Shown: one piece after another, positions 3,001-21,110 of the stretch | How the letters are laid out: each line of letters opens with the position of its first letter | Numbering within the stretch: the stretch's first letter is position 1 | DNA from: a virus | Length of the DNA: 64,000 nt | IMG/VR virus record: IMGVR_UViG_3300018875_000003 | Span: 1-64,000 of that record | Strand: one strand, 5' to 3' | Made by a program: the position numbers and the translations under genes | Notes under the pieces: generated by a model | Told to the model about the DNA's origin: nothing | The model's input: only the letters and a program-made list of their open reading frames with translations | Database searches by the model: none

Positions 3001-6000
3001 GGGAATGCTGCGCATATGCGGAGTTGCTGAGATTGTTGGCATACCAGTTCATCAGTGCGCCCTGGTTGTCCGTCAGCAGCTCATCCAGAACCTCTGTCGG
3101 CTCCTGTGTGCTGTAGATGAATCCCCGGGTCTGCTCGTCAGGCTTTGCCTTCAGTTTATTCGTCAGCTCGATGCCGTCATCCTGAGCCACGACCGTTACG
3201 GTTTCTCCGTTATTCTGAACCTGCGTTACGACGCCGTTCATCATGGTCGGCATGTTCATCGGGTTGCTGCCGTAGCCCATTCGGAAGTGAATGCGCGCGC
3301 CGGTGCGCAGATACATCGATTTGTACCAGGAAGTATCCGAGTACCGCGAGTTGCCCATAAGGTCCTCGGTGCGGCCGATGCCGATCCGGTTACTCTCCGC
3401 TTCCTTGGCTGCCGACCCAGGAACGAACATAGCCTGCATCAGATCACCTGTGCTGGTGTGCGTCAGGTCGTTCGACTTGATTGCATCTGTTAGCTTACCG
3501 AACACATTCGCCATCTCCATAACCAGCGTACTGGATGCCATCTTACGGCTGTTGGTATAGGTGATGTCTGTCACTGCCCGGTAGCCGAAGAACTGGTCGG
3601 ACATCTTCACGGCGCCCATGAACTGCCCTTCGTCGATAAACATCAGGAAGAAAGTTGGGAATGCTCGCACCAGGCGGCCGCGGCGATCGTACTTAATTGT
3701 ATCGTGATACATTTCCTTGAGCGTGGTCTGTTCATCTTCGAAAGCTTTCTCATCCAGAATCTTCTCCTGGAATGTTGGCTCTGCGCTGTTCATGCTGACG
3801 GATTTGTAGTCTGCGACAGGCAGCTTGGAGTAGTCTGCGTCCACCGTGGAGCTGACCTTCAGCGCGTTAACGCTGGCCATGATCTTTTTGATCAGGGCAG
3901 TAATGCTGGCCGGCATCTTCTTATTGGAGTTCGCCAGCTGGTAATACTCCCGCTCGTATCCCAGATAAGCACAGAGTGCGTTGATCCATTTCGTCTTGGA
4001 TGTGTCCTGCAAACCAAAGGCTTTCGCCACATTGGTATTAGGCGATTTAGCAGATGCGCGTTCCAGATAGTATTTCAGAGACGCGATTCCCTGTTCGATG
4101 TTGTACTCGATGTTATTGGCAAGACCGTTTGGTTCACCCATGACTGGACTGACACGCATAATGCCGATGTACTTCGCATTGCGCAGGTAGTTGGTGTCCT
4201 TGAAATATTTCATTTCCTGATTCATCATGATTGGCACGTTGGCCTTGGAGACTACCATCCCACCGAGGTCTTTGTTTGTGCCATCACCGACTTCATAGAA
4301 CTGCCGCAGCTTCTTATCGAAAGATGTGGCGAGCGCCAGGCAGAGTCTTTGATCCAGCGATTGATCCTTCGCCTTCTTCCGGATGATCGTTTCCACATCT
4401 GCTGCTGACAGGTTCTTCTTATCCGTAGAGTCTGGCGCCGGTGTCAGTGCGCTTGCGTTTTTAATCGCCAGTTTCTCCCGCTCAATAGCTGCTGCCGTGT
4501 TATCATCCGGCGTTGTGGTTGCGCCTTTGACTTCGCCCTGTCCGCCGATGTAATCTCGAACGGATGCCGTGACGTCGCCGCCATCGATAAATTGTCCGAT
4601 CTGTTCTCCGAAGTCAATCGGGTCTGAATAGATGAGGAAGAAGTCTGGGTCAACGTAGATGCCGTCATTCAGGTTCTTAATCTCGAAGCCGGCTGCTTTT
4701 ACCTGTGCATAGGTCGGCAGCTCCAGGTCAGGATACACCTCGACGCCTTTCATCATTTCTTTGACCTGCTGATCGTAGACCGCCTTCTTACGGACGTCCA
4801 GACTCATGAATCCGCCGAATGGGTCTTCACGGAGCCAAGGTTTATCGTCCAGATTCCACCATGCGCGATCTGCCCAGCCAATCTGCCAGTCAATCCCTTT
4901 GGAGAGCCATTCTGTTTCTGCGATCCGCTTCTGAGCCCGGTTGTAAGAGCTGAGTGTCAGCGTGATGCTGTACGACCCCGGCTGCCCTTCAATCGTGGAG
5001 GTTTGCAGGTCTTCTACGACCATGTAGTGAGCCCCGAACAAACGAGTGAGCTGGTGTTCAAACTGAATGAATCCGTTGGAGATTTCGCGGTGGTATTCAC
5101 GGGAAAGATAGCCAGAACGCTGAACCAGAGAGGTCAAGCTGCCGAGGGCTTCTTCATCTTCAGCAAAGAACTGAAGAACGAAGATCGTATCCTGTGATCC
5201 GAGGTATTGGTGCGTAGGCGATTCGTGCATTTGCAGCTGAACCGGCGTGATGACATTCTCATAGCCTGCACTCATTTGCTGCAAGTGGAGCCCTGCGACA
5301 TCCCAGTTTTCCATAAATACATCCATCTCGCTGATGACCTTTCCCGGGTTTGACCGATACAGCTCACCAATCGTATCTTTGAATATCTTCTCGTCAGCTT
5401 CATCCCTGAATGTGCCTTCCCAAATCGGAAGCCCATCCTCATCGTATTTAACGGCTTCGCTGAATACTTTTGGAATCGGAACGCCATCAATCCATTTGTA
5501 GTCGTCCTCGCTGAATCCCGAGTTATTCTGCATATCTTTCGTATACGCTTCGATCAATTTATTGCGGCTGTTTCTCCATTTACGGATGAACTGTAAATCC
5601 TCTTCTGCTGCGATCTTGAAGATATAATCATTGTTCAGGTCTTGCTGCAGCGGCTCATAATAAATAATGAGATTCGCTGGGTCTGGCTTGAGATTACGCT
5701 GGTAATGCCAGCGGAATAGTGGCCAGTTAAACATCTCATCAAACGTTCGGTCCGAGTCATCCATAATGTAGGCGAACGGGTTAAAGGCGTACAGCTGCAG
5801 CTTGGCTTCAAGTGAATGAGGGAAGCCATCTACGGTCTGAACGCTTACACTTGCCACCGTCACCGCATCGATTTTATACGTATTATTCAGCAGCGTATTT
5901 TCAATCGGCAGGAAGGGACACTTGCGCACTTGGGCCAGCAGTGGCCGAAGCTCATTATTGATGCTGACGAGATCGGGGAAGAATAGGCTCAGCTCTACGA

Positions 6001-6196
6001 TTTGATCGGAGTAGCCGCTGCCCTTTACAAAGCTTCCTCGTCCGCGCAGCACATTTATCTTGTCTTGTTTCATACGCCGCTGAACATGAATTGCAGTCGG
6101 GGGTACGTAAAACTGCGTATCCCCGATCCGCAAGAAATGATCACGCAGGCTACCATAGAGGGAATCTCTATCGTCATAACCAAGCGTTGTTGCCAT
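1..6196 (-). CDS. Giant baseplate hub / tail-associated lysin (>2060 aa, runs off the left edge; missing from the ORF track)
   Basis: ATG at 6196 after GGAGG (MATTLGYDDRDSL...). The frame was open at every point I translated, down to base 2. It has hub-like segments (GARIHFRMGYGSNP...VTVVAQDDGIEL), a degenerate SLT-like region (~3900-4400), a GH73 glucosaminidase (NALYLAAHAAWETGWGTS...KNNLFGYGAYD...YATDKNWA, ~320-640) and the start of an M15-like peptidase (ICITSAYREGDRNW) at the edge. Confidence 0.8.
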   Translation of the reverse strand, partial: MATTLGYDDRDSLYGSLRDHFLRIGDTQFYVPPTAIHVQRRMKQDKINVLRGRGSFVKGSGYSDQIVELSLFFPDLVSINNELRPLLAQVRKCPFLPIENTLLNNTYKIDAVTVASVSVQTVDGFPHSLEAKLQLYAFNPFAYIMDDSDRTFDEMFNWPLFRWHYQRNLKPDPANLIIYYEPLQQDLNNDYIFKIAAEEDLQFIRKWRNSRNKLIEAYTKDMQNNSGFSEDDYKWIDGVPIPKVFSEAVKYDEDGLPIWEGTFRDEADEKIFKDTIGELYRSNPGKVISEMDVFMENWDVAGLHLQQMSAGYENVITPVQLQMHESPTHQYLGSQDTIFVLQFFAEDEEALGSLTSLVQRSGYLSREYHREISNGFIQFEHQLTRLFGAHYMVVEDLQTSTIEGQPGSYSITLTLSSYNRAQKRIAETEWLSKGIDWQIGWADRAWWNLDDKPWLREDPFGGFMSLDVRKKAVYDQQVKEMMKGVEVYPDLELPTYAQVKAAGFEIKNLNDGIYVDPDFFLIYSDPIDFGEQIGQFIDGGDVTASVRDYIGGQGEVKGATTTPDDNTAAAIEREKLAIKNASALTPAPDSTDKKNLSAADVETIIRKKAKDQSLDQRLCLALATSFDKKLRQFYEVGDGTNKDLGGMVVSKANVPIMMNQEMKYFKDTNYLRNAKYIGIMRVSPVMGEPNGLANNIEYNIEQGIASLKYYLERASAKSPNTNVAKAFGLQDTSKTKWINALCAYLGYEREYYQLANSNKKMPASITALIKKIMASVNALKVSSTVDADYSKLPVADYKSVSMNSAEPTFQEKILDEKAFEDEQTTLKEMYHDTIKYDRRGRLVRAFPTFFLMFIDEGQFMGAVKMSDQFFGYRAVTDITYTNSRKMASSTLVMEMANVFGKLTDAIKSNDLTHTSTGDLMQAMFVPGSAAKEAESNRIGIGRTEDLMGNSRYSDTSWYKSMYLRTGARIHFRMGYGSNPMNMPTMMNGVVTQVQNNGETVTVVAQDDGIELTNKLKAKPDEQTRGFIYSTQEPTEVLDELLTDNQGALMNWYANNLSNSAYAQHSLGIMHFGMPGKPINYFWRSELSDRPQNEITMNIYETTGKYKTEANGFWSKLGDFFGIGESDEQGININLYDKTVWDVLNITAAVAEDFIVAVHPFDFRNTIFHGKPYFPVGYEYVLADEKQATQQSGYYSFWNQMNPFNFKLSDDETDYTGIKIRRKPFRQIHVYDSWSSIIDNSIVATDENVYTVAQGVYYDEGKMDTTDFIYVDTNIWPEKQRTAQIDTQLNLQGVRLIENIPLIGHWLNKPFKWYFDEYTAIRIAAAGLRDLVKEMYDGYLTVMGDPSAKPHNQIYLYDTYLDMSGPVEIREVTHIMNFDVGYITMIKPDACAVNSDTKMTNFWITAGSVAAQAFALTMLRHMMRNRGYQGTMPIMNALWASTKRRYNAMMGKWDSSWMKDRATSLLDKTKSALSSDGKATVYKGGAGPIFEVDPITGEVREYSPVSTEMKKRWEKSGLLKDLMSKIEGFTFKDGQNLFDKLDGALSNRRFLSYDKVDLNKIAKLKTVASEAIFSSAKYIGKGAKWGRRGIQGIIGIGAAFLGPVGWLGYAIEFAVTELVTRGISEWIERFLFTRHAVLIATLRKEGVEFSAGINGHQGSVIGDSPDTWTRLLTGTVGSIVLGFLGADVSRYAPVDGSNLDDAYGVRALAASTEQDNTLDMNVFAKNFIEAHRKPVTFSQAMSDQYEADKKDAAAAMQGHLEEKDAENKRSASYAAEESSLLTMDDFQNAFGSSASNADGTSYETLDLNKPSGISAEAIDKAFAGHGKLAGLGKTFVSIESNIPPAPHPLTNIIESPNEGGRVMNALYLAAHAAWETGWGTSRIFKDKNNLFGYGAYDSSPYDSAYTFASPADCVIYAANKVKDNYLTKGGKYYNGPTLEGMNVKYATDKNWAHGIASIMAKIAKYDPNYQPPTIANGAQTKGEKPVIYGNEGKVKYRLKSSAEAAKACIDIRKQPLTNMKLTMVTSSPYVRQASYDLLEALGKEYKKRTGQTICITSAYREGDRNW

Positions 6197-6206: not shown

Positions 6207-9200
6207 CTATGAATACTCCTCCACTTTATCCCGGTACCAGTTTCGGGAAAGCTTCGCGGTGTTGTCGGTATGATTAATGCTCATATTCATCCGGCCGCCG
6301 CCGAAGTTCGACTGCTGCATCCCCTGATGGACCATGCGGGAGAAGTCCTGAGTATTCTGATTGTTACCTTTTGCCTTTACTTCAATGCTTGCTCCGCCCT
6401 GTGAGGCACCTGAATAATCAAGGCCTGGAAGTGCAGGTGCAGGCGTGCCGCCACCGTAATTTGGTGCCTGATCGGCAGCAGTCGGTAGTGGCGCATTGTA
6501 TGGCGTTACAGGTTCAGTAGAACTAAGAGTATTGTACCCTATAACCCCTGCCAGCGCTAGGGCTGCACCGCCCATAATCATTTTATTTCTCTTTCCGTTT
6601 GCGCCATCGAATACCGTTTCCATCGCTCGCTTGACGGCATCGTTTGCACGCATGCCCATCATGCCACCCGTCATGTCTTCGATCGTCTCCGAGAACATGC
6701 CGGCAATACCTCCAGACCTGCGGGCTGCTCGCTCGAAGAAGCCTGGTTCGTTTGGCTCCACTCGGAAGCCGGACTCCGACATGCCTGCCCCTTCGCCATC
6801 GATACCCATCAGGTTTCGGATCAGTCCGAGACCGGAGTTAGAGCTGCCGCCTTCACCGAAGATGGAATCCACGATGCCGCCGACACCTACCCGCTCGGGA
6901 CTCATACCGCTGCTGGTACCGAACTTTTTGAATGGGCTGCTCAGTCCACCATCCAGACTGTGAATCTTCTGGAGTTCGCGGATCGCTGACTCGTGACCGG
7001 TAACACCATCCGTGTTGCCGAAGAACTGCCGATCGAACTCATGGACTCTTCTCCAGTCGGATTCCGTAGATGCTCGGTACATGGAGTTGATAAACGACAT
7101 CGCGTCATCGATCTCCTGCGCACCGTGCTTGGATGAGATCAGCTTCTGCTCCAGGTCTTGACCGAAGTCATAGATGGCTTGGCGGGCTGCATCATCGTGA
7201 CCGAGGAACGTTTTCGCTTGCTGCCGCATCGCGTAGTTTAAGTTGGATGCGTGGCCGATTACCATCTTGCCGGACTTCGCTGTCAACTCCGATCGCTCGT
7301 TGGCGGCGAACTCAGTAAAGTGCTCCTTATCCGATAGCGATTCCAGATCGAAGTTCCGGCTCCGGTCTTCGTCATAATCAGACCATAGCTTCTGAATAGC
7401 CGAGGAGCGCTCTGCTGCGCGGTCGTGGTAGATACGCGCCCACTCGTTCTGAATCTTGTCATTCGTGATGGCCACGATGTTATCGTAGTCACCGTCAGAG
7501 TCGGCTTTCATCAGAGCGGATGTCAGGGCGGTTACATGGAACTCGCCTTCCCGGATGCCTTCCTTCATCTGCAGCTTCGTCACTTGCATCGCATTATCAT
7601 GAAATGTCGGATACCGGACGTTCATCGCATACGTGTCGGTCCCGGCAGCCAGCCGGTCGTACACACCCATCTTCCGAGCGTCTTCCGGGGAGATAAAGGT
7701 ATACTCGCCGCCGAGGGATTCTGAAGCTTTCGGATCGATCAGCTTGAAGATACCGCTACCGGACTGGTTCATGTTCGTCTTGAACACGCTGCTGTACGTC
7801 TGCCCCTGGGAAGAGGTAACGTCTTTGGCCAGACGGTTTACGTATCGGTCGATCGACTGCTGCAGCTTGCCTTGGGCTTCTACGGCTTCATCGTAAGAGG
7901 ACACGCCATTGTTCTTGCCGATCGCAGCTGCTCTCCGGTAGATGTCTGCAATATGATTTTGCAGATCCCGCAGGTACAGCTCCCCACCCTTGCCTTCCTG
8001 TGCCGTGAATGGCACGAAGATTTTATCGATGGATTTTCGCACTTCCCTGCGGTTCACGCCGCTGCCTTCTACCCGATCCACATAGCTGTAGTTCAGGTCT
8101 CCGACTTTCGGCAACTCCAGCCAGTAGCCTTGCTGGCTTGTATTCTCTCCGAGCATCTGGGAGACGTGCGCCCGGTCGAAGATCGTACCCACCATGGAGT
8201 TCTGGTTGTAACCGTCCACCGGCAGATCGCGGAAGTCGCTGACCGATAATGCCCGTCCTGATACCGAGTCTGGGTTAACGAACGTATTCAGCGCGGTGAT
8301 CATGTTTCGGGATTCCTGCGCCCGGTAATTCGATTCATTGGTTGCCAGCATGCGATTGTACATATACTCTTTGGTAGCCGAAGCTCCCATGTTATCCAGT
8401 ACGCCATATTCACGATGGCCCCATGTTACACCCTTGATTGCATTCTCGCCGCCTGCATATATCGGCTCATCTCCTCGGAAGCCGATAACCACTCGTCCAG
8501 TGTCATCTGTCATTCGGGAATAGTTCTGAACCTGCGAAGCCCGAACCTCCTGAATGGCCGTTGTCAGGCCGGTCGCCGTTTTGTTATTCAGGTTGATGTC
8601 TGGATGAGCGAACAGCTTGTTGAAGGCATCTGTGCTAATGTCGTTCTGCGGATTCGCCAGGAAACGATCGCCTTGCCAATCCAGACCGATGCCAGACTCC
8701 CTGACGGCCGCCAGCGCCCGCTCCTGCTGCGCCGGATTCATGTCTTGAATGTGGTCGGCAAGCAGCTTGGCTTGACCGGTCATCATCGCACCAAAGTCTT
8801 TGTGCTTCTTCACGTCTGGGTTGTAGATCGCCATGACGTCATCAGAACCTGTCAGGTATTTCATTAATTCTCTGGATACTACCGTGTCTGTGGTCTTCTC
8901 CCCCTCGATCATGAATTTGAAGGGACGGTCTTCGGTGTGAATGCCGATTCGGTTCTCATCATGGTCGGTGAAGATTGTGCCGGACTTATTGCCCTGGTAG
9001 TAAACCTTCTCGTCTACTCCGCCGATCGAACGTGCCCCCAGCAGGTCGCCTGGGTTTACAGTGCGCTTCAGATGCCCGTCTTGGTAGAACTCACTGTTCC
9101 AGGTGAAGACGTCTCCTTTATCGATGAAGCTATGGTTGTCTACTTTGTAGGCATCCATGATTTCTTTCGTAAAGATGGCCTGCTGCTCATACAGTCTGGC

Positions 9201-12200
9201 TTTCAGAATCGGATCAGAGATCTGGTCTTTGATGTCCTGACTGACCTTGCTGTCGGCCAGCAGCTGCGCTACTCGGTCGTCCAGTTGCCCCTGGGACATA
9301 TAGGCGACCTTCATGTTCACGCCACGCTGCGCAGGATTGGCTGCATTGCGCTCTTCCATGGCTGCCGTTGTAACGAGACCCCCAAAGTAAGACGGCTTCA
9401 TGCCGGCTTCCAGGAGCCCCTGACGTGTGCGCTCATTGACGTTGTAGGAGTTGAACCACTGCACGGCATTGTCGCGGCCGTTAAAGCTGAATGCGCCGAG
9501 TGGATGATAATCCTGAACGTTCTGGAAGGACCAGATACCCTTCGATACATTCTCCGATTTTACGCTGCCGGCAAAGATGTTCAGGCCTTTTCCAGCTGCC
9601 CAGTCATCGACTTCTTTCAGCATCTCATACGCTTTGTGCGGAGACAGATCGTTGAAGGTTGCATGCCGGATGTCGCCGCCGCGCTGCAGCTGTCCACGTA
9701 GTCCGTCTTCCCGTATATCCCGGTCCAGATCGATACGTCCGGCAGCATGCCAGTCTGCGATCATTGCTGGCGCCACGCTGACGTGAGATTGCTTCAGGAA
9801 GTCAGAGTCATTGTTGCCCCAGTAGTATCCGTCATTCTGGGAAACGACGTTGCGCTTGATGCCGGACAGTGATTCGATCTCGCCGCGCAGCGCCCGTCTG
9901 CTTCGAGTATTGGCTTCTTCGTAATCATCGTCTCGCACAGCATTGAGGATGTTGCGCATCTCTCGGGAGTCTGTGTAGCCTCTGGCGATCATCTCAGCCG
10001 AGGAGATGGTCTTGGTCTCGCCGCCTTCATTCACGAGGAAGGAGCGGGCATTGAGGACTTGGTTGCCGATAACATGTGTGCCGTTCTGCTGAATCAGCGG
10101 TACGACCACTTCGGCTGCTTTACTGTGCGATTCGCCGGCAAGGAATTTCTCCATGACGCTCGCGCTGTTCTCGCTCTTGAAGATTTGAATCTTCGCCTGT
10201 GTGCCTTCCTGATTCAGGGATAGGTTGTATTGTAAACCGTGGATGCCCATCCGATCGGCAGTCGTCCGGTAGTTCTCCAGAACGTGGTTGACGGCTGCGT
10301 AGTTGTTGCTGCGCAGTCCTGACGCATGTTGGATGCTGTCGAGTCTACCAAACAAGTCGATCGCTCCGTCATCCATCTTCACTCGTTCATTCTGAATACC
10401 GTGCTGCATGATGAATCCTTGAATCCCACTTGTCTTGGTCAGAGCCGATTGAATCATCGACTGGTTGACCCCTTCGCTGATCTGCTGCATCTCCACACGG
10501 CGGCCGACCGATTTGATCTTCAGGTTCTGCTGCATAATGTCATGGTTATCCATCAGGTCTTGCACCATCATGTTAATACTGTCGTTGATGGCGTAGCTTC
10601 GGTTAAACTCGTGGAACTTACCGGCTACCTTCCGATCAATGACTCCACTCTCCTGCAGGGAGGTAATCATATTGCCGAGGCGTTCTTTCTTGCGATCTAC
10701 CGTATCGTCCGGTTTGCCGATCTGACGGTAGATTGCATTACGGGCAGTCTCCATGCTTTCGAAGTTCAAATACCGCTGCTCTTTACGGGCGCTGGTTCGA
10801 TCAACGTAGTGGATGCCGCGCTGCTCGAATGGCTGTGTGGCGCGCTCAGTCATGTCGCCGCCGACTTTGCTGTTTACCTCCTGGCTGTATAAACGCCAAG
10901 CGATATCTCGCTGCTGCCGGACTCGGCGCACTTCCTTATCGCTCATGCCTGGAGTGATCGCGTATTTCTCTTCAATCGCCTGGATTGCCTGATTGTAATG
11001 CGGCAGCTCGTCTACAAGACGAGGAGCCATCCGGAAGAACAGCTTCTGCTCGGCTTCGTTGAACTTGCCACCCGGCAGACTGTTGAAGTCCATTCGACTC
11101 ATCATCTCTTCGTGAGTAATCCGGCGATCCATCATCTGCTTACGTGTTACAGAAGTGTCGGCATCCATCTGTTGCAAGGTGCGCTGGATGTGGGAGTCTT
11201 TCCCGGACAGACGCTCTTGATAGATAGCGGCATTGCTATACATCCGTTTGGCTGCTTCAAAACCGCGAGTCGTTGTATTGCCGCCTGCGCCGGACAGGGT
11301 GAACAGGTTGTCGTAGCGTCTGCGGGCGAGGTCGGTTTCCTTTTGAACACGAATCTCCCGCTGCATTTCCTTGGTTAATCCATTCCAGTTGTAGAACTTG
11401 CGCTGGACGAAGTTTTCGATCTGCTCAATCGCATCGTTTCCTTCGCGGATGATGAAGGAAGTTTTCTTACTCTCCGGATCATACAGGTCAAGCGCCAGTC
11501 GGTTTGTTCGCACCGTGCCGTCTTCATTTAAGTCAGAGATGTTGCGCAGCCCCTGTACTTCATAGAAGGACTTGCTGTTGATGGCCATGCGGTTGAAGTC
11601 CGGGTCTTCTGCTTTGAATGCGCCGTCTACCAGATCGGCCTGGAAGTCACTGGCTCCATTGCCGTAAGCCATAGCACCTCCGATAGAGAACAGCCGGTCG
11701 CCGCGCTTCAGCACGCGATCGCTCCAGCTCAGCTCCGTAGGACGGTAGCTGAATCCGAACGTATCAATACCAGGCAGCTCCTTGGCTTGCTCCACTTTGG
11801 ATCCGATGCCGTTAAACATTCGGGCAAATACACCGCCAAGGCCTTCCTCCCCGATATCGTGCATTGCGTTGTGGGCTGCGCCTTGGTCAAATCCGAATGT
11901 CCGGCGAAGCTCCTGCAGCGTAGCCAGACCACCAAGCGCCGGTTTGGATTCAAAGCTGCGCCCGAAGTCGGTGTGCAGTCCCTTCATATTTGGATACGAA
12001 GACTGAATGACTCTCAGGAAGTCGATGTGCTTTTTCGGACCCATGATCGGCTGACCCATTTTCTGACTCCATAGCTCCAACGCTGGAATATCGAAGTTGG
12101 TTCCGTTATGAGACAGGAAGTATTTATACCGGTTGTCGTGCATGAACTTATTGTACCGGTTGATAACGCCGAGGTGATCCTTTTCCCCGTTCGCCTGCAG

Positions 12201-12977
12201 GTCATTGAAACCCTGGTTGATGTGGCGAAGGTAGAACTCGAAGTTCTGTATAAACTTCAGGTCATCGATCGTGCCATCTGTACGCAGAATCTGGTTGACG
12301 ACTTGGTTGTGGGTGATATTTGTAATCCCTCGGTTCGTCTGCAGAAGCGCACCGGACACGCCGCCTTCGTTTGATGTACTGTAGCGCATCAAGTCAATAA
12401 CTGTCCGCTGCTCAGAGGATGTCATTTTACGGAAGCTGTACGGGTCTGTCTTGATTTTCTTAATCAATCCCTTTACTTCCGTGGCTGATTTATTATCCAG
12501 TGCCAGCAGCGCGCTGAACACGCTTTTCGCGTTAGCCTTGTAGCTGCCGTCTGCTTGACGGGAAAATCCCTGCGCGGCAATCTCAGTGACACCGAATCCT
12601 GCGCCGCCGTTCTTTGCACGGTCGCCCATAGTCTCGATATCGAAAGCAATGTATGAGTTGTGCTTGCTGCTCGGGTCTTTCGCTTTCTGTACGAAGTTCT
12701 GGAAAACCTCGATTGCGCTTCGGGACTGGTTGCCGTTAGCGGCGTAGTACTCTGGCATGACCTTGTACTTGCCTTGGCCAATGATCGACTGTGGCATAAT
12801 CCGGGAGTTATTGATCTTCTCCACCAGCTGATCGACCTGTCCTTTGCGGCTGTCTTTCTTGGCGTAGTTCGGACTTGTAACGGGATTGAAAGCCGTCACA
12901 GGAACCCAGGTTCCGCGGCTGTTTGGAGCAACCGCTTGGAACCCTTCGGCCATTAATATATCCTCAATTCCTGCCAT
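6207..12977 (-). CDS. Single-chain beta/beta'-like two-barrel RNA polymerase with N-terminal DEDDh 3'-5' exonuclease (putative virion RNAP)
   Basis: DEDDh motifs: AFDIETMG, SHNGTNFDIP, AHNAMHD. beta-like motifs: GVNMKVAYM, FKFMIEGEK, DVMAIYNP, GVTWGHREYGVL. beta'-like motifs: GYWLELP, LQQSIDRY, NVRYPTFH, catalytic MKADSDGD (~7488-7502). Confidence 0.8.
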   Translation of the reverse strand: MAGIEDILMAEGFQAVAPNSRGTWVPVTAFNPVTSPNYAKKDSRKGQVDQLVEKINNSRIMPQSIIGQGKYKVMPEYYAANGNQSRSAIEVFQNFVQKAKDPSSKHNSYIAFDIETMGDRAKNGGAGFGVTEIAAQGFSRQADGSYKANAKSVFSALLALDNKSATEVKGLIKKIKTDPYSFRKMTSSEQRTVIDLMRYSTSNEGGVSGALLQTNRGITNITHNQVVNQILRTDGTIDDLKFIQNFEFYLRHINQGFNDLQANGEKDHLGVINRYNKFMHDNRYKYFLSHNGTNFDIPALELWSQKMGQPIMGPKKHIDFLRVIQSSYPNMKGLHTDFGRSFESKPALGGLATLQELRRTFGFDQGAAHNAMHDIGEEGLGGVFARMFNGIGSKVEQAKELPGIDTFGFSYRPTELSWSDRVLKRGDRLFSIGGAMAYGNGASDFQADLVDGAFKAEDPDFNRMAINSKSFYEVQGLRNISDLNEDGTVRTNRLALDLYDPESKKTSFIIREGNDAIEQIENFVQRKFYNWNGLTKEMQREIRVQKETDLARRRYDNLFTLSGAGGNTTTRGFEAAKRMYSNAAIYQERLSGKDSHIQRTLQQMDADTSVTRKQMMDRRITHEEMMSRMDFNSLPGGKFNEAEQKLFFRMAPRLVDELPHYNQAIQAIEEKYAITPGMSDKEVRRVRQQRDIAWRLYSQEVNSKVGGDMTERATQPFEQRGIHYVDRTSARKEQRYLNFESMETARNAIYRQIGKPDDTVDRKKERLGNMITSLQESGVIDRKVAGKFHEFNRSYAINDSINMMVQDLMDNHDIMQQNLKIKSVGRRVEMQQISEGVNQSMIQSALTKTSGIQGFIMQHGIQNERVKMDDGAIDLFGRLDSIQHASGLRSNNYAAVNHVLENYRTTADRMGIHGLQYNLSLNQEGTQAKIQIFKSENSASVMEKFLAGESHSKAAEVVVPLIQQNGTHVIGNQVLNARSFLVNEGGETKTISSAEMIARGYTDSREMRNILNAVRDDDYEEANTRSRRALRGEIESLSGIKRNVVSQNDGYYWGNNDSDFLKQSHVSVAPAMIADWHAAGRIDLDRDIREDGLRGQLQRGGDIRHATFNDLSPHKAYEMLKEVDDWAAGKGLNIFAGSVKSENVSKGIWSFQNVQDYHPLGAFSFNGRDNAVQWFNSYNVNERTRQGLLEAGMKPSYFGGLVTTAAMEERNAANPAQRGVNMKVAYMSQGQLDDRVAQLLADSKVSQDIKDQISDPILKARLYEQQAIFTKEIMDAYKVDNHSFIDKGDVFTWNSEFYQDGHLKRTVNPGDLLGARSIGGVDEKVYYQGNKSGTIFTDHDENRIGIHTEDRPFKFMIEGEKTTDTVVSRELMKYLTGSDDVMAIYNPDVKKHKDFGAMMTGQAKLLADHIQDMNPAQQERALAAVRESGIGLDWQGDRFLANPQNDISTDAFNKLFAHPDINLNNKTATGLTTAIQEVRASQVQNYSRMTDDTGRVVIGFRGDEPIYAGGENAIKGVTWGHREYGVLDNMGASATKEYMYNRMLATNESNYRAQESRNMITALNTFVNPDSVSGRALSVSDFRDLPVDGYNQNSMVGTIFDRAHVSQMLGENTSQQGYWLELPKVGDLNYSYVDRVEGSGVNRREVRKSIDKIFVPFTAQEGKGGELYLRDLQNHIADIYRRAAAIGKNNGVSSYDEAVEAQGKLQQSIDRYVNRLAKDVTSSQGQTYSSVFKTNMNQSGSGIFKLIDPKASESLGGEYTFISPEDARKMGVYDRLAAGTDTYAMNVRYPTFHDNAMQVTKLQMKEGIREGEFHVTALTSALMKADSDGDYDNIVAITNDKIQNEWARIYHDRAAERSSAIQKLWSDYDEDRSRNFDLESLSDKEHFTEFAANERSELTAKSGKMVIGHASNLNYAMRQQAKTFLGHDDAARQAIYDFGQDLEQKLISSKHGAQEIDDAMSFINSMYRASTESDWRRVHEFDRQFFGNTDGVTGHESAIRELQKIHSLDGGLSSPFKKFGTSSGMSPERVGVGGIVDSIFGEGGSSNSGLGLIRNLMGIDGEGAGMSESGFRVEPNEPGFFERAARRSGGIAGMFSETIEDMTGGMMGMRANDAVKRAMETVFDGANGKRNKMIMGGAALALAGVIGYNTLSSTEPVTPYNAPLPTAADQAPNYGGGTPAPALPGLDYSGASQGGASIEVKAKGNNQNTQDFSRMVHQGMQQSNFGGGRMNMSINHTDNTAKLSRNWYRDKVEEYS

Positions 12978-12989
12978 TGTTTCACTTCC

Positions 12990-15900
12990 TTAGATCAGAG
13001 AATCCATATTCTCCTTGAAATAATTGTCGAGTTCGCCGGAACGATCTTCTTCGTAATTGAATTTCACGTTGGTATTGCCCTGCTCATTCGGCATGATCCG
13101 AATCTCTACATCCGTCAGCCCCTGCCCTTCAAGTACAGCTTGAATATTCTGCTGCATCTGTTGGTAGCCGGAAAACTGCGGGCCATGTAGGAAGACGTCG
13201 TTGCCTGCCGGACTGATGTCGGGGAGGTAGCTGGAAGACACTACATCGTCAGACCAGAAGTTAAAGTCACTCATATCTAGTCCGCTATCTTGTACTGCCT
13301 TTACCTTCATATCATCCAGATCGACATTCGGATTCCATCCGATCCATCCCGGGTCTGGCAGCACAAATTTGGAGAAGACTTCTTCCAGTGGCTTCGGCCC
13401 TTCATCACCCATGCCCCACATCGCTTTATAAATCCGGCGCTGGTTTTCGGGAACGAGTTCGAGTATGCGTTGCCGGTCTTTCTCCGGCGCGTTGGCGAAG
13501 TCATCGAAGAACCATTTGTCCTTGTATGGGAAGGCGCTGGCCAGCTTCATACGGTCGCCGTGCGGGTCTGCTCCATACAGCGTGCGCTCGTACATATCCT
13601 TGAAGTGCATCGCCGTGAGGACTTCATCCGGCAGTTGCATTTCATTGAAATCCTGGCCAATCGTCTCTATCTCTTTATTGATATCCCTGCGCCGGTCTTC
13701 CCAGCCTTTCGGTTGATCAATAAACAGTCGGAGTTTTTCGTCTTCGAGTTCTCGTTTGCGCTGTTTATTCAATTCTTCTCGCGCGGATTCATCATTCATG
13801 ATGGCATCCACATCGTAGCCAGCATCAGCAGCATCCTGCTTTGCTTGCTCATATAATCCATGATATTTCATGTACTTCAAGACGTCAAAGTATTCATTAA
13901 TATCATTTTCAATTCGTCTGCGCTCCGGAATCCAAGCTTCGCCGGTCTCCTTCTCGTAGTGCTGTCGGTATAGGTTTCCGATCCCCGCGCCGACTGCGCC
14001 GACGATACCGCTGCGGATGATATTCTTCTTCCCTGCCCCGAAGATATTCAGGAAGCCGCCGACCAATGCACCGGCGATCGCGCCGCGCATCATCGAGTCA
14101 TCAAGGTCATGCCGGATGATCGATTGAAATCCTGGAATCAGGTAGTCATCGATCATGAAATTTTCCCAGGTAGACCAATCCTTGCCGTACACCTGATCGC
14201 GCTCGTATTCTTCCAGTGCGGTCCGCACCTGCAGGAACTTCGTATTCAGTGGGGATTCAAAGTGGGCGATACGCTCCCATCTGGCTCCCTTGGAAATCTC
14301 AGCCTGCGTGAAGCGGGCGAAGACGGCTGGTGCGGAGAAGTCGGTTTCGTTTTCCTTCATCAGTCCACGCTGCAAGATGTCACGGTTGATATTGCCGATC
14401 TCTTTATTGAAGACGACAACGCGTGCGGTGTTGTACGTATCGCCGGATAGCTGCTTGCTCTCATCGCCGTTGAGTCCGATGGTGATTTTATCTCCCTGCT
14501 TGATGTAGGACTGCAGCACACCTTCTGCTCGCGGTCTCAGATTCATACCGGCCAGGCGGAAGACCTGATCACCATATTCCTCGGTTACGAAGCTATAGTC
14601 ATCCAGGAACTTACGGACGGTGGCGTTCTGGTATTCCAGCTCAGCGCCTTCAAAGCGATACGGAGTGAACTCGTACTTCTGCTTCCGTCCGGCCACCTGA
14701 CGCTTGATCTCAGCCGCTTGCTTCCGCAGCTCCGGGTCAGTGTTGGTCTGCACCACATAATCCCGCCAGAACTTATATTCATCACTCCACGGCGCTACAT
14801 CGGCAAGGATCTTAAATTTGTCGAATGCACCGTATGCGCCAGTCTCGTCCGGATGAAGCTGATTCAGTTTCTCGTAGGACTCGCCCGGCAGCCGGAACTC
14901 GCCGTGATCGATCTTCTGGTATGGATCGCCGGTCTGGAAATCGATGAAGTAGTTTGCCCCCGGCAGCCAGTCGGGCATTGTGTTTTCAATCGGATTATAT
15001 TTATCGAGCTGTCCATCATCACGCCGAATGAAACGGCGACCGATCTCTGACAGCTGTCCGCCGAGTGAACCGGCATTCAGACCCTGAAAGGCGTTCGACA
15101 GGTTATAGGCAGCGTCTGCCTTCTCAATAACTGTCTTGCCTTCGTATGGGTTGTAGCCAGCCATTTCATCTTGGATAATCCACTTGTATACCCCGAGCGG
15201 TTCAGACCAGTTCTCCCAGGCTTCCTGTGCGAGCCATCCTGCGCTTGTTGGGTCTTTCAGTTCTTGCAGCTTCCGGTTCTCCAGCTCCTGTTTGTAGATG
15301 AATCCATCATCAAACATTGCGCGCGGCTTGGTCTTAATCAGTGCTTCGTCATCGGATTCCTGAGCAATCTGGAACAGCTGGCCGGTCGTATAATCCTTGT
15401 TGGCCATGTTGGCCGGGACGTATACGGCTTGACCGGTGCCGACGTCTTGAGCAATGTAAGCTCCGGTCGGGTTGCCCTCTCCGTCTTTCTGATCGATCCG
15501 GATATACTGCGGCATTGCCGTGCCGTCGCCCTCTACATATTGTCCAGCACCGTAATCGCCAGAATCTGCATAGACGACATTCTCCGTGCGCCCGCCTGGC
15601 GAGAACCGGGTGATAATCGGACTCGTTGGACGCTGGATTACATCTTCTGTTCTTTCCTGCATCAATACAGGGTCGCCCCAGTAATCCGGGTGCATTCTCT
15701 CCGTAGGCTTAATCAGCTGCCCGATCGTTGCGTTTCCGATGTCTCCGAAGAATGGAGTATTCGGGTTGAACAGCGATCCTGTGATGAGATACGGACGGTC
15801 GTAGTAGTGCTTCTTCTCCCAGTAGTACGGATCGTTGAGCCCAACCGCATAAGCCAGTCCGCCGAGCGGATTCCGGAAGGTTGGAATCATATTGGTTTCG

Positions 15901-18875: not shown

Positions 18876-19025
18876 TCACCCCAATCCATCTCCGTATTTT
18901 TCAAACCATATTTGGAAGTAGAGCGCCCAGCAGTCCTGTATTGCCCACTGCCCATCTCCATATTTTCGATTGACCATTGGGTCCTGATAGATGCCACTGA
19001 CGAGCTGCCATGCCGGAAACGTCAA
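18876..19025 (-). CDS. Small 49-aa protein (not in ORF track)
   Basis: TTG start overlaps the upstream TGA (TTGA) and follows a GAGGTG RBS. Sequence MTFPAWQLVSGIYQDPMVNRKYGDGQWAIQDCWALYFQIWFEKYGDGLG fills the gap exactly. Confidence 0.55.
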   Translation of the reverse strand: MTFPAWQLVSGIYQDPMVNRKYGDGQWAIQDCWALYFQIWFEKYGDGLG

Positions 19026-19804
19026 TCGAACTCACCTCGCAGTTGATCCTGCGTGCCGAAGAAAGCCAGCTCCGGATAAGATTGATCAGATATCTTTTTG
19101 CTCAAGTCAACACGCTCTCCCATAGCTTGAGACATCATCATCTCCAGCTCTTGCTGCGTTAGTTCTTTGCGGCTGGTGTCTCCCTGCTTCGGCTGCTGTT
19201 GCTGCGGCATCTCAGGATTAGCCAGTGGTGACATTTCAGCCCGCTGCTGCGGCGACATCATCGTTGTAGGCGGCACCTGCATTTGCTGCTGGGTTTGCAT
19301 CGCCCTCAGCTCTTCCTCTGTGTAATGCTGCAGCGGCACGCCTCTTAGATTCTGCAGCGTCCATTCTGCCCGGGACAGATAAAACATCGTCTTCGGTACC
19401 GGCCAGGCTGCGATCTCTTCCAGCGTAAACTGCGGATAGGCTTCATGAATTACGCAATCGATCTGTGCATTATAATCCGTCATCTCATCTCGGTAGTAAG
19501 TCAGCAGCTGTTCGGCTGTCTCTGGCCCATTTAGCATGGAGGACTCCAGGATCATGGAACAGAGCGATGTTGCATATCCGTCCTTTGTTCGGAAGTTGAA
19601 TCCTTCCGGGTATAGTGTCGCCAGCTCGCACAGGATTTCTTCGGTCTCAGTAGGCGAAGCTTCCTCCATCGACATGACGATGTTATACTCCGCTCTGCCG
19701 ATCATTCGATAAACGAAATGCTGCTCATTGATGATGACAGCGAAGATATCCTGGTATTGCTCTTTCCATTCGTTAACCTGTTCTTGTGTATACATAGTCA
19801 TCAC
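19022..19804 (-). CDS. Tail assembly chaperone-like protein 2
   Basis: Lies between the tube genes and the tape-measure-like gene. Its N-terminus (EWKEQY..F.YRMIGRAEY) is paralogous to the adjacent 151-aa protein. Confidence 0.55.
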   Translation of the reverse strand: MMTMYTQEQVNEWKEQYQDIFAVIINEQHFVYRMIGRAEYNIVMSMEEASPTETEEILCELATLYPEGFNFRTKDGYATSLCSMILESSMLNGPETAEQLLTYYRDEMTDYNAQIDCVIHEAYPQFTLEEIAAWPVPKTMFYLSRAEWTLQNLRGVPLQHYTEEELRAMQTQQQMQVPPTTMMSPQQRAEMSPLANPEMPQQQQPKQGDTSRKELTQQELEMMMSQAMGERVDLSKKISDQSYPELAFFGTQDQLRGEFD

Positions 19805-19807
19805 CTG

Positions 19808-19840
19808 ATAAAAAATGAAGCAGAGCGCGCGCCCTGCTTA
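19808..19840 (-). terminator. Intrinsic terminator-like hairpin between the chaperone genes
   Basis: Minus strand reads AAGCAGGGCGCGCGCTCTGCTT followed by CATTTTTT. Confidence 0.55.
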
Positions 19841-20293
19841 CAGTTTGATTGGCGCCGATTGGGCCACAAATGAACTTTTTGCCATAATCATCTCGGCCAA
19901 TACGCTGGCTCTGCCGGCGCTGTCTGCCTTGATTTCTTCCATTGACATCGCTGGGAACAACAGACACAGGTTTGTCATTGCTTCTTCACGATCCATCGTA
20001 TTAAGCGACTTGTCGTCAATCAGTGTGCGGTATTCCGGACGACTCAGTACACGCCAGATATAAACGCCATCGTCGAAAGGCGTGAAGTATACAGATCCGT
20101 GCATCTTCTTCCATTCCTCTACGGTTCTGCGCGTTGGCCCTTCGTCGAAGATTGGTGCGTTCAATTCCTCTTCTGTATAACCTTCAGTGGTCTTTACAGC
20201 CGTTTCTTCTTGCTGCTGTTCTTCTTGCTGCTGTTCTTCTTGCTGCTGCTGTTTTTGTTCGCTGCTATCCATATCGAAAAGCGTTGGCTCCAT
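19838..20293 (-). CDS. Tail assembly chaperone-like protein 1
   Basis: Position downstream of the tubes; motif EEWKKMHG..YIWRVLSRPEY; Q/E-rich N-terminus. Confidence 0.55.
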   Translation of the reverse strand: MEPTLFDMDSSEQKQQQQEEQQQEEQQQEETAVKTTEGYTEEELNAPIFDEGPTRRTVEEWKKMHGSVYFTPFDDGVYIWRVLSRPEYRTLIDDKSLNTMDREEAMTNLCLLFPAMSMEEIKADSAGRASVLAEMIMAKSSFVAQSAPIKL

Positions 20294-21109: not shown

Positions 21110-21110
21110 G

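What the first reader, a model, noticed from the sequence alone, without database searches (positions are those of the whole stretch)
6207..12977. Exonuclease-fused single-chain beta-beta' RNA polymerase inside the tail gene module
Seen: one 2256-aa ORF carries, in collinear order, counterparts of bacterial RNAP motifs. beta: GVNMKVAYM ~ GQNMRVAFM; LYEQQAIFTKE ~ NFEDSILVSER; FKFMIEGEK ~ the two-lysine GDK..GNK; DVMAIYNP ~ VDIVLNP; GVTWGHREYGVL ~ GQRFGEMEVWAL. beta': GYWLELP ~ GHIELA; LQQSIDRY ~ LQEAVDAL; SSQGQTYSSVFKTNMNQSG ~ GKQGRFRQNLLGKRVDYSG; NVRYPTFH ~ LNRAPTLH; MKADSDGD ~ NADFDGD; then bridge-helix- and trigger-loop-like segments. The N-terminus is a DnaQ-like DEDDh exonuclease with all catalytic residues, and the C-terminus has a hydrophobic helix. 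Known: single-chain virion RNAPs exist in crAss-like phages, and Thermus phage P23-45 has a tape-measure-fused one. Inference: this is a virion-packaged, ejected RNAP of a Bacillota myovirus. The built-in 3'-5' exonuclease could proofread or trim RNA, or resect the DNA end to expose single-stranded promoters. I do not know of this architecture being characterised.
Basis: partly seen in the sequence, partly recalled or inferred. Interest (0 to 1): 0.93.

Follow-up and report, generated by a model that had tools for sequence, protein, structure and literature searches.

The report
Exonuclease-fused RNA polymerase in tail operon
A 2,256-residue protein encoded where a large contractile-tailed phage of Bacillus-type bacteria normally keeps its tail "tape measure" joins a DNA-proofreading-type exonuclease to a one-chain copy of the cell-type RNA polymerase core, so the phage probably carries its own transcription enzyme into the host.

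Summary
The ORF is real (window 6207-12977, but on the MINUS strand; 2,256 aa). Predicted structures match known enzymes. Residues 96-400 are a DnaQ/epsilon-type DEDDh exonuclease (Z 14.1 to Pol III epsilon). Residues ~1158-2055 are a single-chain two-barrel RNA polymerase, a beta-like half followed by a beta'-like half (Z 9-12.4 to RNAP large subunits, QDE-1, RDR2). R1788-x-P-x-x-H and D1826-S-D-G-D are invariant. No sequence method reaches significance for the polymerase, so that call rests on fold, motif order and conservation.

The gene lies in the late tail operon: sheath, tube, chaperone pair, gp145-like giant, this gene, lysin-bearing hub. That order is kept in 10 of 10 related loci. 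It fills the slot of Bacillus phage 0305phi8-36 gp146, the "hypothetical tape measure" found in virions by mass spectrometry. gp146 has no polymerase motif and shares at most the C-terminal end.

A second, gp99/YonO-like RNAP gene (57005-60667) co-occurs in 9 of 10 related records.

Virion delivery and early transcription are inferred, not shown. The role of the exonuclease is open.

I found no paper describing this family. The only printed parallel is the unrelated Thermus phage P23-45 gp96. This scan has reported the same family several times before on other DNA.

The parts
6207..12977 (-). Whole ORF, 2,256 aa (P0001), stop codon included
   Evidence: tight operon junctions
11778..12692 (-). 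DnaQ/epsilon-type DEDDh 3'-5' exonuclease domain, residues 96-400, with about 115 extra residues between Exo I and Exo II
   Evidence: VIA-align Z 14.1, rmsd 2.6, 168 of 174 residues of Pol III epsilon (1j53_A); nearly all 50 listed rows are DEDD exonuclease domains or look-alikes. Foldseek prob 1.00 to RNase T, TREX2, DnaQ. Pfam RNase_T 22.9 bits, just under its cut-off of 24.
12633..12641 (-). Exo I motif, D113-I-E115
   Evidence: invariant
12090..12107 (-). Exo II motif, N291-G-x-x-F-D296
   Evidence: invariant. The profile matches the Exo II motif of family B DNA polymerases, E 1.4e-4.
11856..11873 (-). Exo III motif, H369-x4-D374 (the 'h' of DEDDh)
   Evidence: invariant
9507..11777 (-). 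Middle region, residues 401-1157, no assigned fold. Beta-rich 428-512, then mostly helical. Holds the conserved VVPLIQQNGTHVIGNQ (958-973). The single-chain polymerase alignments already start inside it, at residue ~1040.
   Evidence: models; no named look-alike; weak hhalign pairing of 958-973 with E. coli beta 126-141, E 0.069, not significant
8328..9506 (-). Beta-like half of the polymerase, residues ~1158-1550, including the first barrel
   Evidence: model residues 259-651 align to second-largest RNAP subunits: Pol I A135 Z 10.0, AR9 beta-like Z 9.8, Xanthomonas beta Z 9.3, ASFV Z 9.1; vaccinia Rpo132 by Foldseek, E 3e-6
8895..8921 (-). FKFMIEGEK with invariant K1354 and K1361, candidates for the two active-site lysines of the beta-type barrel
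   Evidence: invariant; equivalence to beta K1065/K1073 not checked residue by residue
6813..8288 (-). Beta'-like half of the polymerase, residues ~1564-2055, including the second barrel (about 1738-1857)
   Evidence: model residues 665-1156 align to human Pol I A190 Z 12.4, Pol II Rpb1 Z 12.3, M. tuberculosis beta' Z 10.2, phiKZ gp55 Z 9.9; isolated double-psi barrels map to model 835-960; all 49 listed Foldseek rows are chains of RNA polymerase entries
7599..7616 (-). R1788-Y-P-T-F-H1793, counterpart of beta' N-R-A-P-T-L-H
   Evidence: R, Y, P, F and H invariant; paired with HRNPTLQ of phiKZ gp55 in the profile search, E 0.86, not significant
7488..7502 (-). D1826-S-D-G-D1830, the metal-binding aspartate triad
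   Evidence: invariant; DxDGD in 82 of 88 full-length representatives
6525..6581 (-). Conserved Gly/Ala-rich hydrophobic helix, residues 2133-2151
   Evidence: below the KD 1.6 threshold
6210..6524 (-). Conserved C-terminal end, residues 2152-2256, closing with DNT..L.R.WYRDKV. The only part with any similarity to 0305phi8-36 gp146.
   Evidence: hhalign E 0.001, probability 21%; BLASTP of gp146 to two family members, E 1.4e-5 and 1.6e-5; Hardies et al. [quoted passage not shown]
12990..18869 (-). Upstream 1,959-aa giant protein, homologue of virion protein gp145 of 0305phi8-36
   Evidence: BLASTP E 8e-109; upstream neighbour in 10 of 10 related loci
2..6196 (-). Downstream giant protein (more than 2,065 aa, runs off the window) with a glucosaminidase domain, homologue of baseplate hub gp147
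   Evidence: Pfam Glucosaminidase E 1e-13, phrog_20474; BLASTP to gp147 E 4e-61; downstream neighbour in 10 of 10 loci
19022..20293 (-). Pair of paralogous small genes in the tail-chaperone position
   Evidence: both hit phrog_29362; same position as gp143/gp144 'tail chaperonin'; present in 10 of 10 loci
22474..25245 (-). Tail sheath gene, which marks the module as contractile-tail
   Evidence: phrog_16991 E 2e-171; tblastn to the 0305phi8-36 sheath gene
57005..60667 (+). Second, separate two-barrel RNAP candidate (P0111, 1,220 aa, GGADNDGD), the likely non-virion partner
   Evidence: BLASTP E 9e-11 to 0305phi8-36 gp99, the RdRP/YonO-like RNAP (PMC2147016, PMC7824862); homologue in 9 of 10 records that carry a P0001 homologue

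Best explanation
P0001 is a three-part enzyme made late with the tail proteins. It has an active DEDDh 3'-5' exonuclease (residues 96-400), a ~750-residue region of unknown fold, a single-chain two-barrel RNA polymerase (~1158-2055, beta-like half then beta'-like half, Mg-binding DSDGD), and a conserved hydrophobic helix plus C-terminal end.

I propose the following. It is built into the tail or baseplate interior through that C-terminal end, together with the two flanking giant proteins. It is expelled through the tube on sheath contraction. It stays at the entry site by its hydrophobic helix and transcribes the first DNA to enter, independently of the host polymerase. A second, gp99/YonO-like RNAP encoded on the other arm would then take over, as in Thermus phage P23-45.

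The exonuclease most likely works in cis on a nucleic-acid 3' end at the polymerase, either trimming or rescuing the nascent RNA or preparing the entering DNA end.

Shown here: the folds, the catalytic residues, their conservation, the gene order and the co-occurrence of the two polymerase genes. Inferred: catalytic activity, presence in the virion, ejection, the order of action of the two polymerases, and the exonuclease substrate.
For: Structure:
- The AlphaFold model of residues 900-2060 has pLDDT 72.7 and pTM 0.62.
- Foldseek against PDB gives at least 500 matches at E<=1e-3. All 49 listed rows are chains of RNA polymerase entries, mostly largest subunits, plus vaccinia Rpo132.
- VIA-align against 48,161 chains gives beta'/Rpb1-type chains on model 665-1156 (Z 10.2-12.4) and beta/Rpb2-type chains on model 259-651 (Z 9.1-10.0).
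- One-chain two-barrel enzymes align across both halves: QDE-1 Z 12.1, RDR2 Z 11.8, P74-26 gp62 Z 9.3, phi14:2 gp66 Z 7.0, P23-45 gp96 Z 7.0.
- The viral library's best hits are giant phage proteins, one named 'minor tail protein' (E 7e-22), then RNAP subunits of giant viruses.

Conservation:
- RYPxFH and ADSDGDY are invariant across lineages only ~30% identical.
- DxDGD is present in 82 of 88 full-length representatives.

Exonuclease:
- Z 14.1 to Pol III epsilon.
- The five DEDDh residues are never substituted among 56 representatives.

Context:
- The genes run in one direction: terminase, portal, protease, capsid, sheath, tube, chaperone pair, then three giant genes.
- The same cassette is found in 10 of 10 related loci and in a B. 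thuringiensis plasmid.
- The flanks are homologous to 0305phi8-36 virion proteins gp145 and gp147, and the slot gene there, gp146, was found in virions by mass spectrometry.

Partner polymerase:
- It is present in 9 of 10 related records and in 7 of 7 that are at least 90% complete.

Precedent:
- The tape-measure-fused virion RNAP plus non-virion RNAP of P23-45 (PMC10770324: abstract, sections 12 and 13, passages).
Against: - No sequence method recognises the polymerase. There is no Pfam or PHROG hit. The profile against PDB sequences gives only E 0.86, to phiKZ gp55. hhalign against E. coli rpoB and rpoC finds nothing significant.
- The polymerase call rests on one predicted model built from 11 sequences.
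- Nothing shows this family in virions. gp146 of 0305phi8-36, which is a virion protein, has no DxDxD motif and no detectable exonuclease or polymerase similarity. The slot can therefore be filled by a protein without these enzymes.
- The C-terminal link to gp146 is weak: hhalign probability 21% and no hmmsearch hit.
- About 2,000 residues of globular domains would have to pass a tail tube unfolded.
- The hydrophobic helix is only moderately hydrophobic.
- The two polymerases show no detectable sequence relationship, so the P23-45 parallel holds only at the level of layout.
Confidence: 0.65

Rival explanations
1. It is delivered with the DNA, but its main job is not gene expression. The polymerase would act as a motor that pulls the ~200-kb genome in, or as a primase-like enzyme that makes RNA primers at the entering end, with the exonuclease preparing that end.
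For: The gene sits among tail and entry proteins. A separate gp99-like RNAP that could do the transcription is nearly always present. Hardies et al. raised polymerase-mediated injection for this phage lineage (PMC2147016, passage).
Against: The same paper notes that polymerase-driven entry would be too slow to be the only mechanism for a genome of this size. Nothing in the sequence tells a motor or primase role from ordinary transcription.
Confidence: 0.12
2. It is an intracellular late enzyme that is not packaged, for example a late-gene or RNA-templated RNA polymerase that merely shares the operon with tail genes.
For: Nothing shows virion presence for this family. Its structure scores are as high against RNA-templated enzymes (QDE-1 Z 12.1, RDR2 Z 11.8) as against cellular RNAPs.
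Against: The junctions with two homologues of virion proteins are tight and look translationally coupled. The position is conserved in 10 of 10 loci. The conserved hydrophobic helix and C-terminal end have no obvious use in a soluble enzyme.
Confidence: 0.1
3. It is a DNA polymerase rather than an RNA polymerase: a bacterial-virus analogue of archaeal PolD, pairing a two-barrel catalytic core with a proofreading exonuclease.
For: An epsilon-type proofreading exonuclease is the usual partner of DNA polymerases. The best structural match of the N-terminal domain is Pol III epsilon. PolD shows that a two-barrel core can make DNA (PMC7708050 and PMC6355029, search listing and abstracts only).
Against: The listed matches are RNA polymerases. 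The invariant R1788 sits where beta' has the arginine that, as I recall, contacts the NTP ribose; that is recalled and was not tested. The gene lies in the structural module, not the replication module.
Confidence: 0.07
4. It is a structural tail protein that only keeps the folds of dead enzymes.
For: A decayed copy without any DxDxD exists in B. cereus plasmid pG9842_140. gp146 fills the same slot without these domains.
Against: Every catalytic residue of both enzymes is invariant or nearly so across lineages about 30% identical. This is the signature of selection on activity.
Confidence: 0.03

Closest known systems
Thermus phage P23-45 gp96 (tape-measure-fused virion two-barrel RNAP) with gp64 non-virion RNAP (PMC10770324)
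   Same: A one-chain two-barrel RNAP inside a giant protein of the tail module. There is a hydrophobic, membrane-type segment in the same chain. A second, separate two-barrel RNAP gene lies elsewhere in the genome. The structural match is Z 7.0 over 281 residues (8h2m_A).
   Different: No sequence similarity: the profile search of PDB sequences did not list it. P23-45 is a siphovirus of Thermus. Its polymerase is N-terminal and followed by ~3,800 residues of tape measure, and it has no exonuclease. Here the phage is a myovirus of Bacillota, the polymerase is C-terminal, and no long helical ruler is evident in residues 1-2060.
crAss-like phage phi14:2 gp66 virion RNAP (PDB 6VR4)
   Same: A giant (~2,200 aa) virion-delivered one-chain two-barrel RNAP. 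The structural match is Z 7.0 over 398 residues spanning both barrels.
   Different: gp66 is a capsid cargo protein of a podovirus of Bacteroidota with no exonuclease. As I recall, it is closest to QDE-1. Here the Foldseek matches listed are all chains of cellular, phage or poxvirus RNAP entries, mainly bacterial beta'.
Multisubunit virion RNAPs of phiKZ/AR9-type jumbo phages
   Same: A virion-carried RNAP related to cellular beta/beta'. Matches: phiKZ gp55 Z 9.9, AR9 beta-like chain Z 9.8. The only (non-significant) sequence alignment, over RxPT...DxDGD, is to phiKZ gp55.
   Different: Those enzymes are split into 4-5 polypeptides encoded away from the tail genes. This one is a single chain in the tail operon, fused to an exonuclease.
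YonO (SPbeta) / 0305phi8-36 gp99 / eukaryotic RNAi RdRPs (QDE-1, RDR2)
   Same: One-chain two-barrel polymerases. QDE-1 Z 12.1 and RDR2 Z 11.8 across both halves.
   Different: No profile-profile similarity to the gp99-like family of the same phages. Those are ~800-1,200-aa non-virion enzymes. The window's own member of that family is a different gene, 57005-60667.
0305phi8-36 gp146, 'hypothetical tape measure protein', virion protein by mass spectrometry (PMC2147016)
   Same: The same slot between homologues of gp145 and gp147, a similar length (2,537 against 2,256 aa), and a weak match over the C-terminal ~130-170 residues.
   Different: No DxDxD motif and no detectable exonuclease or polymerase similarity.
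DnaQ / Pol III epsilon, RNase T, TREX family (DEDDh exonucleases)
   Same: The fold (Z 14.1, rmsd 2.6, 21% identity to epsilon) and all five catalytic residues.
   Different: It carries ~115 inserted residues, is fused to an RNA polymerase rather than partnered with a DNA polymerase, and scores just under the Pfam RNase_T cut-off.

Membership tests
Two-barrel (double-psi beta-barrel) RNA polymerase superfamily | Beta'-type barrel carrying the DxDxD metal-binding triad | tested here: met
   DSDGD 1826-1830 is invariant. Model 835-960 aligns to isolated double-psi barrels (Z 8.5-9.6) and lies inside the beta'/Rpb1 alignments (Z 10-12.4).
Two-barrel (double-psi beta-barrel) RNA polymerase superfamily | Second, beta-type barrel supplying two basic residues to the active site | tested here: inconclusive
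   Model 259-651 aligns to second-largest subunits (Z 9.1-10.0), and K1354 and K1361 are invariant. I could not read the structural alignments residue by residue or measure distances in the model.
Two-barrel (double-psi beta-barrel) RNA polymerase superfamily | Templated NTP polymerisation | not testable with these tools
   Needs an in vitro assay.
Bacterial-type beta/beta' subunits as defined by sequence (Pfam RNA_pol_Rpb1/Rpb2 families) | Significant match to the family profiles | tested here: not met
   No Pfam RNAP family at E<=1. hhalign against E. coli rpoB and rpoC is not significant. It therefore resembles these subunits in fold but is not filed as a member of those sequence families.
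DEDDh (DnaQ/RNase T) 3'-5' exonucleases | RNase H-like fold with Exo I DxE, Exo II D and Exo III H-x4-D | tested here: met
   Z 14.1 to epsilon. D113, E115, D296, H369 and D374 are invariant.
DEDDh (DnaQ/RNase T) 3'-5' exonucleases | Pfam RNase_T gathering score | tested here: not met
   22.9 bits against a cut-off of 24: a near miss for a diverged domain with an insertion.
Tail tape measure proteins | Gene directly after the tail-chaperone pair | tested here: not met
   It lies one gene further on, with the gp145-like gene in between. Hardies et al. note the same arrangement in 0305phi8-36 (PMC2147016).
Tail tape measure proteins | Long, mostly helical, extended chain whose length sets tail length | tested here: not met
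   Residues 1-2060 are predicted as mixed alpha/beta globular domains. Tail length is unknown. I call it a 'tape-measure-slot protein', not a tape measure.
P23-45 gp96-type tape-measure-fused virion RNAP | Sequence homology to gp96 | tested here: not met
   Not among the matches of the profile search of PDB sequences at E<=10. The structural match is Z 7.0 only.
P23-45 gp96-type tape-measure-fused virion RNAP | Presence in the virion and transcription of pre-early genes | not testable with these tools
   No RNA run listed. No proteome exists for this family.
YonO / gp99 / RdRP-like one-chain RNAPs | Sequence relationship to the family | tested here: not met
   hhalign of the P0001 polymerase profile against the gp99-like profile gives probability 0.1%.

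The most novel reading that the evidence does not exclude
This is the first RNA polymerase with a dedicated proofreading-type exonuclease in the same chain. The epsilon-like domain would act on the 3' end of the nascent or backtracked RNA, doing what Gre/TFIIS-assisted cleavage does in cellular enzymes. A minimal injected polymerase that works without host factors would then gain fidelity or rescue from arrest. The evidence equally does not exclude that the pair is a PolD-like DNA-synthesising machine delivered with the genome.
Probability: 0.2. Interest if true: 0.9.

Novelty: new variant of a known kind. Interest (0 to 1): 0.75.

Why it matters
Virion-carried two-barrel RNA polymerases are known from only a few phage groups: phiKZ/AR9, crAss-like phages and P23-45. 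This family would add a large and widespread one. It has 107 clusters at 50% identity in a library of 1.8 billion proteins, mostly 2,100-3,100 aa. It occurs in ~200-kb phage-plasmids of Bacillus, Paenibacillus and Alicyclobacillus that are annotated as 'hypothetical' or as tape measure.

It would show that placing an RNAP in the tape-measure slot arose independently in myoviruses. It would also question the 'conserved long tape measure gene' assigned to this lineage in 2007. The covalent exonuclease-RNAP pairing gives a directly testable system for asking what a 3'-5' exonuclease does for a transcription enzyme. Relatives sit in culturable, inducible hosts, so the experiments are feasible.

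Tried and rejected
- tblastn of P0001 against 50,697 phage records: no match.
- PHROGs: no family for P0001 or for the 1,959-aa neighbour.
- phmmer of P0001 against PDB sequences: nothing.
- hhalign of the polymerase profile against 0305phi8-36 gp146, against the window's second RNAP as a single sequence and as a profile, and against E. coli rpoC and rpoB: no significant alignment. The only curiosity is VPLIxxxGTHVIGN against beta 126-141, E 0.069.
- hmmsearch of three region profiles against gp146: no hit at E<=10.
- The idea that the two RNAPs of this phage are recent duplicates: no support.
- Protein Atlas: the 1,959-aa neighbour gave only unnamed clusters at 0.81-0.83, and residues 420-1040 gave no usable hit. 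The middle region and the neighbour remain unassigned.
- Which of the three giant proteins, if any, is the length ruler: not resolved.
- PolD chains did not appear among the rows listed. This is an absence from truncated lists only.
- Sequencing runs: no RNA holder listed. I did not lay reads.
- Complex prediction was not used, because no claim of binding between separate proteins is made.
- Foldseek of the N-terminal model also listed Hsp70 chains at low probability (0.2-0.5) and rmsd above 19. I read these as the shared RNase H-like fold, not as a chaperone domain.
- Literature: seven searches and passages of PMC7824862, PMC10770324, PMC2147016, PMC9700832, PMC8026635, PMC12619734, PMC4870245 and the bioRxiv crAss preprint turned up no description of this family. 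PMC8026635 says of pBtic235-like plasmids that no tape measure was detected and that a 2,161-aa helical protein is believed to be it.
- Supplements are closed. Supplementary Data 3 and 4 of PMC10770324 (23 RNAP families; viral genomes with two RNAPs) may already list this family, and I could not see them.

Full report
**Observation.** The window has an uninterrupted ORF at exactly 6207-12977, but on the minus strand. It encodes 2,256 residues (P0001). It begins 12 nt after the stop of a 1,959-aa gene, and the next giant gene starts 10 nt after its stop. Both junctions carry ribosome sites.

**Family.** A word-indexed search found only six full-length homologues (78-30% identity, 2,233-2,331 aa). 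One is a 'hypothetical protein' of a Paenibacillus urinalis plasmid, and one is labelled 'DNA polymerase III epsilon subunit-like'.
- tblastn found it on 10 plasmid records of Bacillus and Paenibacillus, mostly ~200-260 kb, annotated 'hypothetical' or 'ribonuclease H-like'.
- It found nothing in 50,697 phage records.
- Pattern scans gave 11 full-length loci in IMG/VR and one in a genome of Alicyclobacillus shizuokensis.
- A profile of residues 900-2060, run against 1.84 billion representatives, gave 107 proteins at E<=1e-3 and 56 at E<=1e-30. Most are 2,100-3,100 aa, with the matched region in the C-terminal half.

**Polymerase.** No sequence method recognises it.
- Pfam and PHROGs give nothing.
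- The profile against PDB sequences gives only E 0.86, to phiKZ non-virion RNAP gp55. That alignment pairs RYPtfh...aDsDGDy with HRNPTLQ...NADFDGD.
- An AlphaFold model of residues 900-2060 from an 11-sequence alignment reached pLDDT 72.7 and pTM 0.62.
- Foldseek against PDB returned at least 500 matches at E<=1e-3. All 49 rows shown are chains of RNA polymerase entries: beta', Rpb1-type, vaccinia Rpo132 and AR9.
- VIA-align against 48,161 representative chains placed largest subunits on model 665-1156 (human Pol I Z 12.4, Pol II Z 12.3, M. tuberculosis beta' Z 10.2).
- It placed second-largest subunits on model 259-651 (Pol I A135 Z 10.0, AR9 Z 9.8, Xanthomonas beta Z 9.3).
- One-chain two-barrel enzymes aligned across both halves: QDE-1 Z 12.1, RDR2 Z 11.8, P74-26 gp62 Z 9.3, phi14:2 gp66 Z 7.0, P23-45 gp96 Z 7.0.
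- Isolated double-psi barrels mapped to model 835-960.
- Model residue m is P0001 residue m+899.
- R1788, Y1789, P1790, F1792 and H1793 and the run A1825-Y1831 (ADSDGDY) are invariant, as are K1354 and K1361.
- Of the 110 proteins held (the 107 plus three), 88 have 1,800 residues or more. Of these, 82 carry DxDGD at the equivalent place, four have DxDxD variants and two have NADxD.
- The viral structure library gave as best hits giant phage proteins: a 'minor tail protein' of an uncultured siphovirus (E 7e-22) and proteins of Acinetobacter phage ME3 and Microcystis phage MaMV-DC. RNAP subunits of giant viruses followed.

**Exonuclease.** A model of residues 1-900 (pLDDT 76.8) matched Pol III epsilon at Z 14.1 (rmsd 2.6, 168 of 174 residues, 21% identity). 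Nearly all 50 listed rows are DEDD exonuclease domains or their known look-alikes, on residues 96-400. Foldseek agrees at probability 1.00 for RNase T, TREX2 and DnaQ.
- The profile matches the Exo II motif of family B DNA polymerases (E 1.4e-4).
- Pfam RNase_T scores 22.9 bits against a cut-off of 24.
- D113, E115, D296, H369 and D374 are invariant.
- A near-family HMM finds the domain in 56 of the 88 full-length representatives. All five residues align in 45 of those 56, and the rest show gaps, never substitutions.
- The 32 without a hit are the most distant members, so absence there is not established.

**Rest of the chain.** Residues 401-1157 have no assigned fold. They hold a conserved VVPLIQQNGTHVIGNQ that hhalign pairs with E. 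coli beta 126-141 (EIPLMTDNGTFVINGT) at a non-significant E of 0.069. I keep this as a lead that the beta-like part may start earlier. The C-terminus has a conserved Gly/Ala-rich hydrophobic helix (2133-2151) and an end closing in WYRDKV. The helix does not reach the usual hydropathy threshold.

**Context.** All on the minus strand, from high to low coordinates: large terminase, portal, protease, major capsid protein, sheath (E 2e-171), three tube-like paralogues, two paralogous small genes in the chaperone position, the 1,959-aa gene, P0001, and a gene of more than 2,065 aa with a glucosaminidase domain.
- This is the order of Bacillus phage 0305phi8-36: sheath ORF139, tube ORF140/141, 'chaperonins' ORF143/144, gp145, gp146, hub gp147.
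- The flanking giants are true homologues of gp145 (E 8e-109) and gp147 (E 4e-61).
- gp146 is the 'hypothetical tape measure protein' found in virions by mass spectrometry. It has no DxDxD, gives no match to my exonuclease or polymerase profiles, and shares at most the last ~130-170 residues: BLASTP E ~1.5e-5 to two family members, hhalign E 0.001 at probability 21%, and no hmmsearch hit.
- Hardies et al. (PMC2147016, passages) reported the same thing in 2007 without seeing the enzymes. The slot gene of the related elements BtI1 and BwK1 aligned with gp146 only over the last 60 residues, and they took it to be a diverged tape measure.
- The chaperone / gp145-like / P0001-like / hub cassette is kept in 10 of 10 related loci and in a B. 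thuringiensis plasmid.

**Second polymerase.** I found it homologous to 0305phi8-36 gp99 (BLASTP E 9e-11, pairing FRNPAI...GGADNDGD with FRSPLI...GGADTDGD). Two papers assign gp99 to the RdRP/YonO-like one-chain RNAPs (PMC2147016 and PMC7824862, passages).
- Its family profile gives only weak, non-significant hits to plant RDR2.
- A homologue is present in 9 of 10 records that carry a P0001 homologue. The miss is a 61%-complete fragment, and the count is 7 of 7 among records at least 90% complete.
- The two polymerases have no detectable sequence relationship.

**Mechanism.** I read P0001 as a virion-delivered enzyme. It is made with the tail, held inside the tail or baseplate with its two giant neighbours through the conserved C-terminal end, and expelled on contraction. 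It then transcribes the first DNA to enter, after which the gp99-like enzyme takes over. This mirrors P23-45, where the tape-measure-fused gp96 transcribes pre-early genes, including that of the non-virion gp64 (PMC10770324: abstract, sections 12-13).
- Shown: the folds, the residues, the conservation, the synteny and the co-occurrence.
- Inferred: everything about activity, packaging, timing and the exonuclease substrate.
- Rivals: a DNA-entry or priming role, an unpackaged late enzyme, a PolD-like DNA polymerase, and a dead structural relic. The last is made unlikely by the invariant catalytic residues.

**Comparison and novelty.** It works like the virion RNAPs of P23-45, crAss-like phages and phiKZ/AR9. 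It fails the sequence tests for each of those families, and it is not a tape measure by predicted architecture.
- The exonuclease fusion, the position in a myovirus, and the closeness of the fold to cellular beta/beta' set it apart.
- Seven literature searches and the passages read found no description. The supplementary tables of PMC10770324 could not be seen.
- This scan has already reported the same family on other DNA, including a 78%-identical Paenibacillus copy. Those notes agree with my reading but are not independent evidence.
- I rate it a new variant of a known kind, interest 0.75.

Noticed in passing
window 57005-60667 (+): A 1,220-aa ORF with GGADNDGD is homologous to 0305phi8-36 gp99, the RdRP/YonO-like RNAP (BLASTP E 9e-11). 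It has no Pfam or PHROG hit. It co-occurs with the tail-operon polymerase in 9 of 10 related records.
   Followed up: partly
L022 8854-14187 (B. cereus G9842 plasmid pG9842_140): A decayed 1,777-aa copy of the family. The N-terminal 890 residues and the C-terminal end are intact, but the beta-like barrel and the DxDGD segment are missing and there is no DxDxD anywhere. The gp145-like neighbour is replaced by a 284-aa gene in this 140-kb element.
   Followed up: partly
window 10059-10106 (-), residues 958-973: The conserved VVPLIQQNGTHVIGNQ resembles the universal beta-subunit motif at E. coli beta 126-141 (hhalign E 0.069, not significant). The beta-like part may begin ~200 residues earlier than the structural alignments show.
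   Followed up: no
window 20348-22385 (-): Three consecutive ORFs after the sheath gene hit phrog_9206, labelled 'major head protein'. They sit where 0305phi8-36 has tail tube ORF140 and its paralogue ORF141. The PHROG label looks wrong for this lineage.
   Followed up: no
window 12990-18869 (-): The gp145-like 1,959-aa protein has an N-terminal hydrophobic helix (39-57) and a Gly-rich hydrophobic stretch near residue 1560. All three giant proteins have almost no cysteine (0-0.3%). It follows the chaperone pair directly, so it is as good a candidate for the tail ruler as P0001.
   Followed up: partly
window 51259-52506 (-): An actin-like partition protein (phrog_691, E 3e-41) supports the plasmid-prophage lifestyle noted earlier in this scan.
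   Followed up: partly
L006 record (G005) 119822-123052: The gp99-like RNAP homologue in this provirus record is interrupted by one TAG and one TAA. It may be a broken gene or a sequencing error.
   Followed up: no
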